Part shown: positions 3,100 to 56,635 of the stretch, in pieces
Position numbering within the stretch: position 1 is the first letter of the stretch
How the letters are laid out: every line of letters starts with the position of its first letter
Virus record (IMG/VR): IMGVR_UViG_3300036770_008730
Source of the DNA: a virus
Taxonomy: Duplodnaviria; Caudoviricetes
Length of the DNA: 64,000 nt
Strand: one strand, 5' to 3'
Translations under genes and position numbers: made by a program
The notes under the pieces: model-generated
What the model saw: only the letters and a program-made list of their open reading frames with translations
Database searches by the model: none
What the model was told of the DNA's origin: nothing

Positions 3100-3597
3100 A
3101 TGAAAAAGTTTAGCCAAATAGAAAGCCAAAATGAAGGTCTTAAAGAAAAGATAGTTAGTGGTTTAGCTGGACTATCTATGTTAGTTTCCTCTTGTCAATC
3201 AATAACACCTGAAGAAAAACAAAGATTACAGACTGAGATTGAACATCTTAATCAACAGCAGGATCATGATAAGAAAATGGTTAATTACTATGATGCTCAA
3301 TCTAAAGATAGAATGTCGAAGGTTAGAGAACTTGAAGATGAAATAGGTGAGTTAGAAAAGAAATTAGGAATTCTAAAAACTGGAAAAAAACCTAAATTTA
3401 TACTAAAGCTTCACCTTGAAGAAGGTGGATTGGACAATATTGGAAATTTTGATAGATTACAATTTGATATTGAAATCCCTGTTGATGAAGAATATTTTAA
3501 AAAGTGTAAAGTTGGTGAGGAGCTAGCAAAAGATGTTAGACTTACAAACATATTTCAAAACTGTAATCTGACTGTTGAAGATAAAAGAATGGAATAA
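3100..3597 (+). CDS. Hypothetical protein with capsid-targeting-like leader followed by lipobox-like segment
   Basis: Preferred ATG at 3100 (MKKFSQIESQNEGLKEKIVSGLAGLSMLVSSCQ), in frame with the track ORF 3058 and preceded by AAATATATA; then a coiled coil. Confidence 0.6.
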   Translation: MKKFSQIESQNEGLKEKIVSGLAGLSMLVSSCQSITPEEKQRLQTEIEHLNQQQDHDKKMVNYYDAQSKDRMSKVRELEDEIGELEKKLGILKTGKKPKFILKLHLEEGGLDNIGNFDRLQFDIEIPVDEEYFKKCKVGEELAKDVRLTNIFQNCNLTVEDKRME

Positions 3598-3601
3598 CTC
3601 T

Positions 3602-3991
3602 ATGATAAAAAGATATTTAAATTTTATAGTTGAGGCTGATGAGGTTAACGTTGATAAATTGGAAACCGATCAATCTTCTTCATCCGATTTTATCGAGGTT
3701 AAGGATGAATTAATGTCGATGATTGAAGAAACTGCAAAAAAACAAAAACAAGAACCAAATTCATTTTTGAAAGAATTTCTAAAAAATCCAAAAGATGTTA
3801 AGATAGACGGTCTAGTAACAGATTCTGATGTATTTGAATTTTATAAAAAATGGGGAAATGATATTGATGAAATTTTGAATAAGATAAAATTTTTCAATGA
3901 AAGACCAAGTGATTTGAATGCAATAGGTTTATATAAATATCTAATAATTGCAACCGAAAAGGCTATAGTAGAATTCCTAAAAACAAAATAA
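3602..3991 (+). CDS. Acidic hypothetical protein, putative internal head protein
   Basis: Preferred ATG at 3602 gives MIKRYLNFIVEADE, a leader shared with several other ORFs. Confidence 0.55.
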   Translation: MIKRYLNFIVEADEVNVDKLETDQSSSSDFIEVKDELMSMIEETAKKQKQEPNSFLKEFLKNPKDVKIDGLVTDSDVFEFYKKWGNDIDEILNKIKFFNERPSDLNAIGLYKYLIIATEKAIVEFLKTK

Positions 3992-4438
3992 TCATTTCAT
4001 TAAATATTGTAAGATATCGAAATGTATATGAAAGTGATTTATTATTAATAAAATATAAGTTGAGACTTTAACGACTAAAAATGAAATTGATAATATTTTT
4101 ATCAAAATATTATATCTTATGGATTTTGTAGATAGATTTATTATTAGCGAACATATCAAAATTGCTAAATAGACATACCAAGATTTAGTTAAAAGACCAC
4201 CAAATAAAAGAAATAACTCTAAAAAATTTATAATTCTATAAGCGGAAAGTGAATTGTATTCTTCTTCTTCTCTAAAGTCTTCTTTATTGGCTTTTTTACC
4301 TGTAACCTTCTCATATTTGTCAAACCATTCTTCAATATTTTTAATTGAAAAAAATTTTGAAATTATGCCTAAAAGTAAAAAAGATGTAAAAAGTGCGTAT
4401 ATGTAAAATACATGTCCCATTGGTCTGTTATATACCAA
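3992..4438 (-). CDS. Hypothetical membrane protein (about 3-4 TM segments)
   Basis: 148 aa with hydrophobic stretches at residues ~8-28, 68-100 and 112-135. Confidence 0.6.
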   Translation of the reverse strand: MVYNRPMGHVFYIYALFTSFLLLGIISKFFSIKNIEEWFDKYEKVTGKKANKEDFREEEEYNSLSAYRIINFLELFLLFGGLLTKSWYVYLAILICSLIINLSTKSIRYNILIKILSISFLVVKVSTYILLIINHFHIHFDILQYLMK

Positions 4439-4484
4439 TAATTTTTTTTGTTTAATTTTTTAAAAGTAAACAGAAAGTGTTTTT

Positions 4485-4493
4485 TAATATATA
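4485..4493 (+). promoter_or_regulatory. Putative phage late promoter TAATATATA
   Basis: Exact motif in the intergenic gap 27 nt before the ATG at 4521. Confidence 0.55.
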
Positions 4494-4520
4494 TAGTTAA
4501 TAAAATTATTTTTATTTTTA

Positions 4521-54098: not shown

Positions 54099-54117
54099 TG
54101 TTACTTATCACAGAAAC

Positions 54118-54162
54118 AAAAAGACGGATTTATTGTATAAAAATAAGTTCGTCTTTTTTTTT
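54118..54162 (+). terminator. Hairpin plus U-tract between trxA and smpB
   Basis: AAAAAGACGGATTTATT...AATAAGTTCGTCTTTTTTTTT, stem with two G-U pairs. Confidence 0.65.
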
Positions 54163-54174
54163 AATTTATAAATT

Positions 54175-54612
54175 ATGACTATATCTACAAATAGAAAAGC
54201 AAAATTTGAATACCACATCTTAGAGGAATACTCTGCTGGTATTATATTAACAGGTAACGAAGTAAAGTCAATTCGACTGAGTAATGTTAATATGCAGGAT
54301 TCTTTTATCTACTTAAAAGATGGTGAAGTTTGGATAAAAAACTTAAAGGTTGCTATGTATTCTCAAATGCATCGTCAAGATAAACACGAAGAGAATAGAG
54401 ATAAGAAATTACTTCTTACAAAGAAACAAATTCAAAAAATAGGAAAGGAGCTTTATAACACAGGTGTTACTTGTGTTCCACTTTCTATTTATATTCATAA
54501 GAATAGAATTAAAGTTAATATTGGAGTGGCTAAAGGAAAAAAGAGTTGGGATAAAAGAGAATCTATTAAGGAAAGAGATATAAAAAGAGAAATACAAAGA
54601 AATGGGTATTAG
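54175..54612 (+). CDS. smpB: SsrA-binding protein SmpB
   Basis: NRKAKFEYHILE...AGIILTGNEVKSIR...KKLLL...GKKSWDKRESIKERD. Confidence 0.95.
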   Translation: MTISTNRKAKFEYHILEEYSAGIILTGNEVKSIRLSNVNMQDSFIYLKDGEVWIKNLKVAMYSQMHRQDKHEENRDKKLLLTKKQIQKIGKELYNTGVTCVPLSIYIHKNRIKVNIGVAKGKKSWDKRESIKERDIKREIQRNGY

Positions 54613-54982
54613 AAAACCAAACTTCAAAAAAGACTTAAAGAAATTAATGTCTGCTCAAAATGAAGAAGAAGTATTAGATTGCCTTCTTAGAATTATTAAA
54701 GTATATAATGTTTATACCTACAAAGATTCTATTTTGACAAATCCTTACTTTAAGATGTTAATTCCAGAGTTAAAAGAAAAAGTCCTAAAGGAATTAAATA
54801 AACTTAGAAAAAGTATTTCTTCTGAAATAAAAAATATTGATGGTGATTTAGAGATTATCGAAACTGAATCCGACCCTGATTTAACTCAACAAGTAGAAAG
54901 ATTAAAACAATTAAGACACGACTGTATGTTATTAATAAATGAGGTAGATGAAAAGAAACTTGATTTAGAAAACTTACTTTAA
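54602..54982 (+). CDS. Hypothetical helical protein
   Basis: 126 aa, overlaps the smpB stop. Confidence 0.6.
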   Translation: MGIRKPNFKKDLKKLMSAQNEEEVLDCLLRIIKVYNVYTYKDSILTNPYFKMLIPELKEKVLKELNKLRKSISSEIKNIDGDLEIIETESDPDLTQQVERLKQLRHDCMLLINEVDEKKLDLENLL

Positions 54983-56635
54983 CATTTTTATAACTAAGTT
55001 TTCTAAGTTTTTCAACTTAGGTTCGTTTCTGGTTAAATCGTCTTTATTCATTCTTTTCAAATCATATTCAACGTCCATAGAATCATCGAAACATTTAAGA
55101 ATAGAATAAAATCTCGAAGAAAGTTGAAAGGCTCTATCACTTTCAATTATATTATAAATAGAAGCCAAATTATGAGTTATAATTCTAAGATCTTCTATTG
55201 TATTAATTTCCTTTGATTGTATCGAAGAAGTTATCAAGTTTGAAATTTCAACACACTTATTCCACTGTTTTAAGAATAATTCTTTTTCATCATCTTCTAG
55301 AAAATCGGATATATCCTCTAATATAAACTTTTCTGTTTCGATGTACTTAGAGTTATAGTTGTTAAAAGATTTTATACTGTTTTCATATTGACTAAGAACT
55401 TCATTGAAATATTCTTTTTTCCCGTCCATATCATTTTCTTGTATCATATCATATAAGTAATCATTTATCTTTTGTAATTTTGAAAAATGTCTTCTTATAA
55501 TACCAATTAGTGCAAATTTACCACCTACCGCTTTTAGAACCAGTTTATTTAAATCTTTGAATTCGGTTTTTTCAGGAGAAATACCAAGTTTTCCAATCAA
55601 CTGTGTTATGTATCTTGAAATGTTCATTTCTCTTATTTCTTCATCACTCATTAAAGCTGTTGCTCCCTCTCTTGATTCCCCTCTCTCTTTTCTCATATCA
55701 CTTGGTCTCTCATAAAACTCAGCTTTATCAGGATCCATCATATCATCTAAATACATAACTAAACAGAAATCTGCTTTATCAATTTGGTTTTCGTCTCTAA
55801 TTGAATTATAGTTTTCGGTCCAACTTTTAATATTTCCACCTCTAAGTGGTAAATTATAACTCAGTGGATTTTCACTTTTATCATTGTTTGTAGATAATAC
55901 AGTTGAAGAAGGTACGTACTTATGTAATTTTATATGATCATTTTCAGGCGATCCATCCATATAAATAACCCAAGAGTATTGACCATATTGTGTCCATTCA
56001 TCACTATCTGGAAAAGAACCATCAGCTACATTTTGTATAGCATATATTTTATCATCATCAACATAAATAACTGCCCAAGTTAGATAATCTATATCATCAT
56101 ATGAATTAAAATACCCTACAACTACATCACCGGTTTTTAATTCTTCATATGTTGGTGATTTAGATACACCTAATGGGTTTGCAACTGGTACAAATTTTCC
56201 TATTGTGTAGTCTTTTCCACTTGGTAATTGCTCTGATATTTTACTTTTTAAGTAAGATAATTCTTTATCTGTTAATGAAGTTCCTGTGTTAGAGATTTTC
56301 TCTTTATATTCAAATGTTTTATTTCCCGTTGCTGTATATCCTAAGTAACCATCTTCTAATGAAAACCAATACTTTAAACAATCTATTCCCCAATAATTTG
56401 ATATTTCGGATTTTGGTTTAAGCTTAAGAGCTGACCATTTAGACATATATTTTATATTTTCATCTTTAACTTTAGAAAGTGGATAATCGTATATTTCTAT
56501 TATCCTTTTCAACTCCTCTAAGAATCTACCACTATCCGACTTTACTTTAGACTTAAGAAAATTAATGGTTTTAGAAATGTTAATAGATTCTATTGCTTCT
56601 GTTAAAAATCGAGTTCTGGACTTTATATACTTCAT
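54974..56635 (-). CDS. Hypothetical protein with capsid-targeting-like leader
   Basis: 553 aa, starts MKYIKSRTRFLTEA; TAATATATA at 56642-50. Confidence 0.6.
   Translation of the reverse strand: MKYIKSRTRFLTEAIESINISKTINFLKSKVKSDSGRFLEELKRIIEIYDYPLSKVKDENIKYMSKWSALKLKPKSEISNYWGIDCLKYWFSLEDGYLGYTATGNKTFEYKEKISNTGTSLTDKELSYLKSKISEQLPSGKDYTIGKFVPVANPLGVSKSPTYEELKTGDVVVGYFNSYDDIDYLTWAVIYVDDDKIYAIQNVADGSFPDSDEWTQYGQYSWVIYMDGSPENDHIKLHKYVPSSTVLSTNNDKSENPLSYNLPLRGGNIKSWTENYNSIRDENQIDKADFCLVMYLDDMMDPDKAEFYERPSDMRKERGESREGATALMSDEEIREMNISRYITQLIGKLGISPEKTEFKDLNKLVLKAVGGKFALIGIIRRHFSKLQKINDYLYDMIQENDMDGKKEYFNEVLSQYENSIKSFNNYNSKYIETEKFILEDISDFLEDDEKELFLKQWNKCVEISNLITSSIQSKEINTIEDLRIITHNLASIYNIIESDRAFQLSSRFYSILKCFDDSMDVEYDLKRMNKDDLTRNEPKLKNLENLVIKMLK

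What the first reader, a model, noticed from the sequence alone, without database searches (positions are those of the whole stretch)
3100..56635. Seven unrelated proteins carry a T4-like capsid-targeting leader: candidate injected cargo
Seen: MKKFSQIESQNE (3100), MIKRYLNFIVE (3602), MIKRYLQFIKE (13110), MRLIKKFEN (14066), MKLNRYNQFLKE (34920), MKIKKFNELF (36580), MKYIKSRTRFLTE (56635). The rest of each protein is unrelated and mostly acidic. Established: T4 internal proteins use a leader of the MKTYQEFIAE type for packaging into the prohead; the gp21 protease cleaves after Glu, and the proteins are ejected with the DNA (IPI counters a host restriction nuclease). Inference: these are head-internal proteins delivered at infection, and so good candidates for new anti-defence or takeover factors. 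Four lie just downstream of late-type motifs.
Basis: partly seen in the sequence, partly recalled or inferred. Interest (0 to 1): 0.75.

Follow-up and report, generated by a model that had tools for sequence, protein, structure and literature searches.

The report
T4-like capsid-targeting leaders, huge phage
Four to six otherwise unrelated small acidic proteins in this piece of a ~0.6-Mb uncultured Bacteroidota phage start with a short peptide that matches the tag phage T4 uses to load proteins into its head, and relatives put it on 13-16% of their genes, so these phages probably pack a large protein cargo, though no experiment shows it.

Summary
All seven N-termini are in the sequence as written. 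Four are real leaders (3602, 13110, 34920, 56635). A scoring matrix trained only on a related 635-kb phage ranks them as the top four of 62 window genes, where about 0.08 would be expected by chance. Two more (14066, 36580) are diverged copies of a second flavour, supported by orthologues. The one at 3100 is not supported and looks like a membrane or lipoprotein signal.

In the relatives about 120-150 of 920-960 genes carry the leader, almost only at N-termini. Selection acts on the peptide, not the DNA. The same matrix picks T4 ipII and ipIII among the top three of 1,580 T4 frames.

The relatives have a T4-type portal, gp21-like protease and gp23 capsid module. Their protease is fused to about 13 tandem repeats whose core YSEYIAE copies the leader core. 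A promoter-like motif, TTAATATATA, precedes both head genes and leader genes.

Packaging, cleavage, injection and anti-defence roles are inferred, not shown. The cargo proteins have no known fold or family.

I found no paper describing this. The scan has already noted it in other windows of this genome and in other huge phages.

The parts
13110..14069 (+). P0003, 319 aa, type A leader MIKRYLQFIKE (13110-13142) on a protein of unknown fold
   Evidence: 15.9 bits on the matrix trained on LR745206.1. 118 of 119 homologues start MIKRYL[ED]FIKE-like. In the model the leader is a detached low-confidence helix, pLDDT 40. No PDB fold match.
33991..34920 (-). P0005, 309 aa, type A leader MKLNRYNQFLKE (34885-34920), very acidic
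   Evidence: 14.7 bits. All 24 homologues, down to 32% identity, keep the leader. No orthologue in the two complete relatives.
3602..3991 (+). P0002, 129 aa, type A leader MIKRYLNFIVE (3602-3634)
   Evidence: 9.9 bits. Orthologues start MIKKYLQFIKEADEV (LR745206.1) and MIKRYSQFIKEADEF (LR756502.1).
54974..56635 (-). P0007, 553 aa, hybrid leader MKYIKSRTRFLTE (56597-56635)
   Evidence: 8.4 bits. In its 81-member family, close homologues start MKYIKSRVEFIKEAFES and distant ones start MKYIKLFEAFES, so the two leader flavours interchange within one family. Model pLDDT 86, no fold match in PDB or AFDB.
14066..14392 (+). P0004, 108 aa, diverged type B leader MRLIKKFENY; its start overlaps the stop of P0003
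   Evidence: Only 4.8 bits on the type B matrix. Homologous (E 6e-7) and syntenic to LR745206.1 291084 (MKYLRKYNES) and LR756502.1 315393 (MKYLRRYNED).
36041..36580 (-). P0006, 179 aa, MKIKKFNELF: probable lineage-specific variant of the type B leader
   Evidence: Matrix score about 0. The LR756502.1 orthologue (37% identity) starts MRIKRFFELFD and the IMG/VR relative L211 starts MKIKKFNEEVG.
3100..3597 (+). P0001, 165 aa, MKKFSQIESQNE: not supported as a leader; N-terminal hydrophobic segment with a lipobox-like LVSSC, then a coiled coil
   Evidence: Negative on both matrices. No homologues. Hydrophobic residues 17-31. Only weak coiled-coil family hits.
13096..13105 (+). Promoter-like motif TTAATATATA, 14 nt before P0003
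   Evidence: The same motif precedes the portal and protease-scaffold, and a variant precedes the capsid gene, in LR745206.1.
56642..56651 (-). Promoter-like motif TTAATATATA, 16 nt before P0007
35066..35075 (-). Promoter-like motif ATAATATATA ahead of the small ORF 34880-35044 and P0005
3085..3094 (+). Promoter-like motif AAAATATATA ahead of P0001; P0002 follows 5 nt after P0001
14443..14943 (+). 166-aa protein resembling the N-terminal ~105 residues (propeptide and N-arm) of the relatives' gp23-type capsid protein; lies just after P0003 and P0004
   Evidence: BLASTP E 3e-5 to the LR745206.1 capsid protein, sharing KWSxxL..MG..G and LLPxAMKxAxxTI. Conserved in both relatives.
51163..51897 (+). 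Phage sigma-70-type factor; candidate reader of the TTAATATATA motif (inference only)
   Evidence: Pfam Sigma70_r2 and r4; phrog_1740.

Best explanation
The window comes from a ~0.6-Mb phage of the 'Mahaphage' group, which is predicted to infect Bacteroidota. Four of the seven proteins (starts 3602, 13110, 34920, 56635), and probably two more (14066, 36580), carry a portable 10-13-residue N-terminal leader. Its full form is M-K-Y-I-K-x-Y-x-x-F-[IL]-x-E. Type A keeps KK-Y-x-x-F-I-x-E, and type B keeps MK-Y-L-K-x-F-E-x-F.

The leader is the counterpart of the phage T4 capsid-targeting sequence MKTYQEFIAE. The proposed mechanism has four steps, all inferred:
1. The genes are transcribed together with the head genes from a TTAATATATA-type promoter.
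2. The leader mimics the 14-residue repeat (core Y-S-E-Y-I-A-E) of the protease-scaffold fusion, so the protein joins the scaffolding core of the prohead.
3. The gp21-type protease cuts after the Glu of [IL]-x-E and removes the leader.
4. The acidic mature proteins stay in the head and enter the cell with the DNA.

Shown here: the motif, its restriction to N-termini, its portability, selection on the peptide, its likeness to T4, and the T4-type head genes and scaffold repeats in relatives.
For: 1. Specificity. In LR745206.1 the loose core [YFW]..[FYL][ILV].E sits at N-terminal offsets 4-5 in 19 genes, against about 0.9 expected. Type A: 30 N-termini reach 14 bits or more, against 0 of 179,077 internal positions. 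Type B: about 90 N-termini, against about 0.3 expected.

2. Independent replicates. LR756502.1 has 38 type A and 116 type B leaders with few internal hits. LR756500.1 carries the fused form MKYIKEYEEF[IL]xE on about 35 genes.

3. The window.

4. Portability. Carriers are mostly unrelated beyond the leader. The leader is kept in families down to about 30% identity. The two flavours swap within the P0007 family.

5. Peptide-level selection. Codons at leader positions follow genome-wide synonymous usage; Leu uses 5 codons and Ser uses 4.

6. Likeness to T4. The CTS is MKTYQEFIAE and is cut once next to it (PMC8442874). My matrix ranks ipII and ipIII second and third of 1,580 T4 frames. The T4 gp23 maturation site FGSFLTE|AEIGG and the gp22 start MLKEQLIAE|A fit the same core.

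7. Machinery in relatives. Portal PF07230 at 195 bits and capsid PF07068 at 89-96 bits. A gp21-like domain with the NRNxRxY, GExxHP and VSSR motifs. This domain is fused to about 13 repeats of NIAYSEYIAENLDK in three genomes and to diverged repeats in a fourth.

8. Co-regulation hint. TAATATAT lies upstream of 56 of 121 leader genes but only 102 of 800 other genes (p about 1e-16). It also precedes the portal, the protease-scaffold and large structural genes.

9. Negative control. None of about 17 window proteins with Pfam-assigned cytoplasmic functions has the leader: ligase, SbcC, S21, S1, SmpB, DnaJ, methyltransferase, sigma factor, ClpP and others.

10. Carriers with domains in the relative include SMODS-associated NUDIX, T4-type RNA ligase, 2H/Acb1-like phosphoesterase, GH108 lysozyme and an exonuclease. 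All of these would be useful on entry.
Against: - There is no experimental evidence of any kind. The clade is uncultured, and the cultured distant relative PTm5 lacks these leaders.
- The head module lies outside the window. I saw it only in relatives.
- The Pfam S77 match is below the curated cut-off (20-23 bits against 27).
- T4 IPs are highly basic, whereas these cargoes are acidic.
- Loading 13-16% of all gene products would be unprecedented.
- The best T4 hit of my matrix is gp61.1, a hypothetical protein next to the primase gene that is not known to be packaged. A matching N-terminus alone therefore does not prove packaging.
- Many type B leaders lack an in-register [IL]-x-E, so their cleavage is less clear.
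- Residue identity of leaders between orthologues is no higher than in the rest of the protein (0.49 against 0.57); only the motif class is kept.
- Lak phages have the protease but no such repeats.
Confidence: 0.55

Rival explanations
1. The leader is a real peptide tag with a different purpose. It could be a recognition signal for timed degradation or unfolding by the phage's own Clp-type proteases or chaperones. It could also sort proteins to a membrane or an intracellular compartment, or act on the nascent chain. The likeness to the T4 tag would then be convergent or incidental.
For: - Function is untested.
- The window and its relatives encode several ClpP paralogues.
- 13-16% of genes is a large share for capsid cargo.
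- The cargo is acidic, unlike T4 IPs.
- T4 gp61.1 shows that such N-termini occur on proteins not known to be packaged.
Against: - This reading does not explain why the leader core equals the tandem repeat of the protease-scaffold.
- It does not explain why the matrix picks out T4 ipII and ipIII.
- It does not explain why leader genes share the upstream motif of head genes.
- No ClpX-like partner was found next to the ClpP gene.
Confidence: 0.2
2. The leader does dock proteins to the scaffold or protease, but the proteins are assembly helpers or core fillers. They would be degraded or expelled during maturation, like T4 gp22, gp67 and gp68, and would not be injected.
For: - T4 core proteins are cut into fragments and leave the head (PMC5694885).
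- Many carriers are small, acidic and without recognisable enzyme folds.
- A protein resembling the capsid N-terminus sits beside two leader genes.
Against: - Carriers in the relative include enzymes that only make sense if kept active: RNA ligase, NUDIX, Acb1-like phosphoesterase and GH108.
- The carriers are the plastic, fast-turnover part of the genome. Only 33% of type B genes have an orthologue in the sister genome, against 49% of other genes. That is not expected of assembly parts.
Confidence: 0.15
3. The resemblance is a by-product of AT-rich coding (Lys, Asn, Ile, Phe, Tyr and Glu-rich N-termini), of translation-start preferences, or of a shared DNA cassette. It would not be a functional peptide.
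For: - The window is 29% G+C.
- Three of the seven N-termini score poorly on the matrices.
- 3100 remains best explained this way, or as a signal peptide.
Against: - N-terminal versus internal enrichment exceeds 100-fold in three genomes.
- Synonymous codons vary freely at conserved residues.
- The leader is kept across families at 30% identity.
Confidence: 0.05

Closest known systems
Capsid-targeting sequence (CTS) of phage T4 internal proteins IPII and IPIII (also IPI, Alt and gp24), removed by the gp21 prohead protease
   Same: - A 10-13-residue N-terminal peptide ending in [IL]-x-Glu, with core Y-x-x-F-I-x-E.
- It sits on unrelated proteins in plastic loci.
- The genome, in relatives, has gp20, gp21 and gp23 homologues in T4 order.
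- The leader matrix cross-recognises ipII and ipIII.
   Different: - About 120-150 carriers per genome, against a handful in T4.
- Two flavours of the leader.
- Acidic cargo, where T4 cargo is highly basic.
- The protease is fused to a scaffold of about 13 tandem repeats that copy the leader core. T4 has separate gp21, gp22, gp67 and gp68 genes.
- The promoter motif is TTAATATATA, not TATAAATA.
- No experimental proof.
Head propeptides and ejection proteins of giant phages phiKZ, 201phi2-1 and SPN3US
   Same: - A T4-gp21-like prohead protease that cuts after Glu.
- Many (about 50) head proteins and a large mass of ejected proteins.
- Propeptides thought to target proteins into the prohead (PMC5694885 and PMC7411985).
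   Different: - In those phages only about 8-14 proteins are cut.
- Their propeptides are mostly more than 100 residues and are not a shared short tag.
- Their cleavage motif is A/S/G-x-E.
- No tandem-repeat protease-scaffold fusion has been reported for them.
Phage P1 Dar anti-restriction proteins packaged in the head (DarA, DarB, Hdf)
   Same: Anti-defence proteins are loaded into the capsid during assembly and delivered with the DNA (titles and abstracts; details from memory).
   Different: P1 uses an ordered protein-protein assembly pathway, not a common cleaved leader. It involves few proteins.

Membership tests
T4-type capsid-targeting sequence (CTS) | Short peptide (about 10-20 residues) at the extreme N-terminus | tested here: met
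   Leaders start at Met1 and end at residues 11-13. In relatives the motif is almost exclusively N-terminal.
T4-type capsid-targeting sequence (CTS) | Sequence like MKTYQEFIAE, ending in [IL]-x-Glu | tested here: met
   Met for 3602, 13110, 34920 and 56635. The matrix trained on huge-phage leaders ranks T4 ipII and ipIII second and third of 1,580 frames. Not met in register by 3100, 14066 or 36580.
T4-type capsid-targeting sequence (CTS) | Portable: the same leader on otherwise unrelated proteins | tested here: met
   No similarity among the seven mature parts or among most carriers in the relative.
T4-type capsid-targeting sequence (CTS) | Genome encodes a gp21-type (S77) prohead protease with a gp23-type capsid and gp20-type portal | tested here: met
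Met in relatives LR745206.1, LR756502.1, LR756501.1 and LR756500.1. The S77 Pfam score is below cut-off, but the catalytic motifs are conserved.
T4-type capsid-targeting sequence (CTS) | Leader removed by cleavage after the Glu | not testable with these tools
   Needs N-terminal mass spectrometry or an in vitro protease assay.
T4-type capsid-targeting sequence (CTS) | Leader-dependent incorporation into the prohead and presence in virions | not testable with these tools
   The clade is uncultured.
T4-type capsid-targeting sequence (CTS) | Late expression together with head genes | tested here: inconclusive
   Leader genes share a TTAATATATA-type upstream motif with head and structural genes. 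There are no timing data.
Bacterial lipoprotein or signal-anchored protein (P0001 only) | Positively charged start, hydrophobic core, lipobox ending in Cys | tested here: inconclusive
   Residues 17-31 are hydrophobic and end in LVSSC. However, a 17-residue mixed-charge stretch comes first, and no predictor was available.

The most novel reading that the evidence does not exclude
Huge Bacteroidota phages of this group run a 'plug-in' cargo system. Any gene that acquires the 10-13-residue leader, which mimics the tandem repeat of the protease-scaffold, is loaded into the prohead, trimmed, and injected. On this reading more than 100 different proteins (13-16% of the proteome, including RNA-repair and anti-CBASS-like enzymes) arrive ready-made with the DNA. 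The window's P0002-P0007 would be new members of that arsenal, with unknown folds.
Probability: 0.35. Interest if true: 0.85.

Novelty: new variant of a known kind. Interest (0 to 1): 0.7.

Why it matters
If the leader works as in T4, a simple sequence rule predicts the whole injected proteome of the largest known phages. That is a catalogue of more than a hundred candidate takeover and counter-defence factors per genome, most with no known fold.

It would also reveal how the cargo is recruited, by copying the scaffold's repeat unit. That mechanism is still unclear even for T4.

The tag could be reused to load foreign proteins into capsids.

For this window, the result marks six orphan acidic proteins as priority targets for structure and defence-rescue tests.

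Tried and rejected
- Near-identity DNA search against GenBank phages: no match.
- No whole genome is held for the window.
- The window's genome is not in IMG/VR, and the look-up of encoding contigs gave only short contigs. I therefore could not inspect the window's own head module.
- PHROG and Pfam searches on the seven proteins: nothing significant.
- Fold searches of confident or moderate models of P0007 and P0003 in PDB and AFDB clusters: no match.
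- ESM Atlas feature search for P0005 and P0003: no usable hit.
- IMG/VR relatives of P0001, P0004 and P0005: none.
- ClpP at 51918-52481 as the prohead protease: rejected. It has several paralogues in relatives, and a gp21-type protease sits between the portal and capsid genes.
- LIAE165 as the capsid maturation site in the relative: rejected. It lies inside the region that aligns with mature T4 gp23. A site near SEYAEFHSINE|NAY (about residue 44) fits better, but is unproven.
- RNA- or DNA-level explanation of the motif: rejected on synonymous-codon variation.
- Higher residue conservation of the leader than of the protein body between orthologues: not found.
- Co-variation of leader and scaffold repeat across clades: uninformative in LR756500.1, where both keep the same core. 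PTm5 has different repeats and no A or B leaders, and a possible xI[QN]E[SN]F match in three N-termini was not tested statistically.

Full report
WHAT THE WINDOW IS

The window is 29% G+C and has no near-identical GenBank phage. Its proteins are 55-80% identical to, and syntenic with, two complete uncultured huge phages: LR745206.1 (634,780 bp) and LR756502.1 (642,428 bp). It is more distantly related to LR756501.1 (735 kb), LR756500.1 (462 kb), the Lak phages and the Tenacibaculum jumbo phages.

The proteins P0003, P0005 and P0007 are on record from a 598,435-bp contig. The published description places the genomes above 634 kb in the 'Mahaphage' clade, with predicted Bacteroidetes hosts (PMC7162821). 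LR756502 comes from a French lake and LR745206 from the Japanese subsurface (PMC9723777).

The window also encodes the following proteins:
- rpS21
- an S1-domain protein
- SmpB
- DnaJ
- a Dam-type methyltransferase
- M16 and M28 peptidases
- CoaE
- a sigma factor
- ClpP
- an NAD-dependent ligase
- an SbcC-like ATPase
- a Toprim protein
- collagen and laminin-G fibre-like proteins

CHECKING THE OBSERVATION

All seven peptides are present as written. To test them without circularity, I fetched the whole of LR745206.1, called 921 genes crudely, and looked for the motif there.

A loose core, [YFW]..[FYL][ILV].E, occurs in 24 N-termini. Nineteen of these are at offset 4-5, where about 0.9 would be expected from the internal rate. 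A 12-column matrix built from these gives 30 N-termini at 14 bits or more and none among 179,077 internal positions.

Applied to the window, the four best of 62 N-termini are 13110 (15.9 bits), 34920 (14.7), 3602 (9.9) and 56635 (8.4). The next best scores 3.0. Only 4 of 19,194 internal positions reach 8 bits. A six-frame scan finds no further copies. These four are therefore real leaders of 'type A': M-[IKR]-x-K-K-[YWF]-x-x-F-[IL]-x-E.

A second flavour, 'type B', has the form M-K-[YH]-[LI]-K-x-[FY]-[ENK]-x-[FY]. It marks about 90 further genes in LR745206.1, against about 0.3 expected. In LR756502.1, which I fetched independently, matrices trained on the other genome find 38 type A and 116 type B N-termini, with 5 and 12 internal hits among 182,041 positions.

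The more distant LR756500.1 carries the fused form MKYIKEYEEF[IL]xE on about 35 genes. Types A and B are therefore two versions of one 13-residue leader. Within the P0007 family, close homologues start MKYIKSRVEFIKEAFES and distant ones start MKYIKLFEAFES.

The other three of the seven:
- P0004 (MRLIKKFENY) scores only 4.8 bits. It is homologous (E 6e-7) and syntenic to genes that start MKYLRKYNES and MKYLRRYNED in the two relatives.
- P0006 (MKIKKFNELF) scores about 0. Its orthologue starts MRIKRFFELFD, and an IMG/VR relative starts MKIKKFNEEVG. First-reader notes on other windows of this same genome list many MKIK[KR]F starts (I did not check these).
- P0001 fails both matrices and has no homologues. 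A hydrophobic segment ending in LVSSC follows it. I do not count it as a leader.

NATURE OF THE SIGNAL

- The carriers are unrelated beyond the leader.
- The leader is kept in 118 of 119 P0003 homologues, in all 24 P0005 homologues down to 32% identity, and in nearly all of the 81 P0007 homologues.
- Codon choice at the conserved residues follows genome-wide synonymous usage: five Leu codons, four Ser codons, and AAA:AAG near 60:40. Selection is therefore on the peptide, not on RNA or on a DNA cassette.
- In the structure models the leader is a short, low-confidence helix detached from the fold.
- The carriers belong to the plastic part of the genome. Only 33% of type B genes have a reciprocal best hit in the sister genome, against 49% of other genes. 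Four of the window's seven have no orthologue in LR745206.1.
- None of the window's Pfam-assigned housekeeping-type proteins has the leader.
- Large structural proteins start with MA or MS instead.

LINK TO T4

The T4 CTS is MKTYQEFIAE and is cut once next to it (PMC8442874). The IPs are diverse anti-restriction proteins that share only the CTS (PMC3012670).

I scanned all 1,580 Met-started frames of 40 aa or more in T4 with the type A matrix. The top three were gp61.1 (MKTFKEFIKED, 19.3 bits), ipII and ipIII (17.2 bits each). The latter two are annotated as internal virion proteins.

The T4 gp23 maturation site FGSFLTE|AEIGG and the gp22 start MLKEQLIAE|A carry the same core.

The relatives have these head genes, in T4 order:
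- a gp20-type portal (PF07230, 195 bits);
- a gp23-type capsid protein (PF07068, 89-96 bits);
- between them, a 700-810-aa ORF.

The first ~170 residues of this ORF resemble gp21. The Pfam S77 score is 20-23 bits, below the 27-bit cut-off, and BLASTP to T4 gp21 gives E 2e-4. The NRNxRxY, GExxHP and VSSR motifs are shared.

After the protease domain come about 13 tandem 14-residue repeats, NIAYSEYIAENLDK, then an acidic tail. This holds in LR745206.1, LR756502.1 and LR756501.1. LR756500.1 has diverged copies. Lak-A1 has none, and PTm5 has a different repeat.

The repeat core Y-S-E-Y-I-A-E equals the leader core Y-x-x-F-I-x-E and the T4 core Y-Q-E-F-I-A-E. The simplest reading is that each repeat is both a scaffold unit and a cleavage site, and that the leader is a single copy of that unit. 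An earlier first-reader note reports the same fusion about 135 kb upstream in this window's own genome. I could not reach that region.

EXPRESSION HINT

TAATATAT-type motifs lie within 80 nt upstream of 56-62 of 121 leader genes, against 102-132 of 800 other genes (p about 1e-15). They usually sit 5-15 or 25-35 nt before the ATG.

The same motif precedes the portal, the protease-scaffold and other large structural genes of the relative, and a variant precedes its capsid gene.

In the window, WWAATATATA occurs 14 times, against 7 expected. Eleven copies are in sense orientation just upstream of genes. These include the large structural-like genes at 4521, 7258, 48279 and 60549, and the leader genes at 3100, 13110 and 56635. 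Another copy precedes the small ORF ahead of 34920.

P0002 and P0004 are second genes of such units. Other genes, such as the ligase, 36631 and 56692, have TAnnTTTG-like host-type boxes instead (the consensus is from memory). A phage sigma factor is encoded at 51163-51897. This fits co-regulation with head genes, but it is not timing evidence.

WHAT THE CARGO MIGHT DO

The window's six candidates have no family and no fold match. They are acidic, with mature pI 4.1-6.4.

Among 48 longer carriers of LR745206.1, single proteins match the following families:
- SMODS-associated NUDIX
- T4-type RNA ligase
- 2',5'-RNA-ligase/Acb1-like phosphoesterase
- GH108 lysozyme
- RNase T-like exonuclease
- methyltransferase
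- wHTH

These activities are plausible for entry, RNA repair and counter-defence. This supports, but does not prove, the 'injected arsenal' idea.

CAVEATS

- Nothing here shows packaging, cleavage or ejection.
- T4 IPs are basic; these proteins are acidic.
- The share of tagged genes (13-16%) is far beyond any known phage. A rough estimate of mine puts the tagged proteins at under a fifth of the DNA mass, which is in the range reported for SPN3US (more than 40 MDa of ejection proteins for a 240-kb genome, abstract of PMC7411985).
- T4 gp61.1 shows that a matching N-terminus can sit on a protein not known to be packaged.
- Many type B leaders lack an in-register [IL]-x-E.
- Leader residue identity between orthologues is not above that of the protein body.

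NOVELTY

Full-text searches found no paper that links huge phages with capsid targeting. The two papers that describe these genomes do not mention the leader.

The scan itself has reported the same system before, both in other windows of this genome and in other huge phages. My counts (about 120 of 921 genes in LR745206.1) agree with those notes.

I class this as a new, massively expanded variant of the T4 CTS system.

Noticed in passing
window 14443-14943 (+): A 166-aa protein resembles the N-terminal ~105 residues of the relatives' gp23-type capsid protein: the propeptide motif KWSxxL..MG..G and LLPxAMKxAxxTI. It lies directly after the P0003-P0004 pair and is conserved in both relatives. 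It may be a capsid-N-terminus mimic or a head accessory protein.
   Followed up: partly
L004 (LR745206.1 198546-200669), L003, L168, L169: The gp21-like prohead protease is fused to a scaffold of about 13 tandem 14-aa repeats (NIAYSEYIAENLDK) and an acidic tail. Lak-A1 (L170) has an acidic low-complexity region instead. PTm5 (L171) has different repeats, of the form EI[QT]E[NS]W[IL]...TKELSEG.
   Followed up: partly
Tenacibaculum phage PTm5 (L175-L186): genes at 139964, 141875, 149656: Three PTm5 N-termini contain xI[QN]E[SN]F (MKLFETINESF, MKELIKHIQESF, MSTSNLYNTIQENF). This resembles the PTm5 scaffold repeat EI[QT]E[NS]W and may be a clade-specific leader that co-varies with the scaffold. 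No statistics were done.
   Followed up: no
T4 NC_000866.4 18966-19130 (-), gene 61.1: The 54-aa hypothetical protein gp61.1 starts MKTFKEFIKED. It is the best match in T4 to the huge-phage leader matrix, scoring above ipII and ipIII. I do not know whether it is packaged.
   Followed up: no
window 20265-20456, 38727-39806, 54175-54612: Translation-related genes are present: ribosomal protein S21 (Pfam 35.6 bits), an S1-domain protein and SmpB (177 bits). This is typical of huge phages.
   Followed up: partly
window 4484-4493, 7225-7234, 13096-13105, 30280-30289, 48300-48309, 56642-56651 and others: A TTAATATATA promoter-like motif lies in sense orientation just upstream of structural-like and leader genes. 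Other genes (48413, 36631, 56692) have TAnnTTTG-like boxes. A phage sigma factor at 51163-51897 may read one of these motifs.
   Followed up: partly
window 51918-52481 (+): A ClpP-family protease has two to three paralogues in each relative. It is an accessory protease, not the prohead protease.
   Followed up: partly
window 13110-14392: P0003 and P0004 overlap by ATGA (stop and start) and stay adjacent in both relatives. This is a conserved two-gene unit in which both genes carry leaders.
   Followed up: partly
window 60698-64000: The G+C content rises to 38%, and long open frames appear on both strands and in several frames (420-1,100 aa). This looks like a repetitive (collagen- or fibre-like) gene running off the window end. 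I did not examine it.
   Followed up: no
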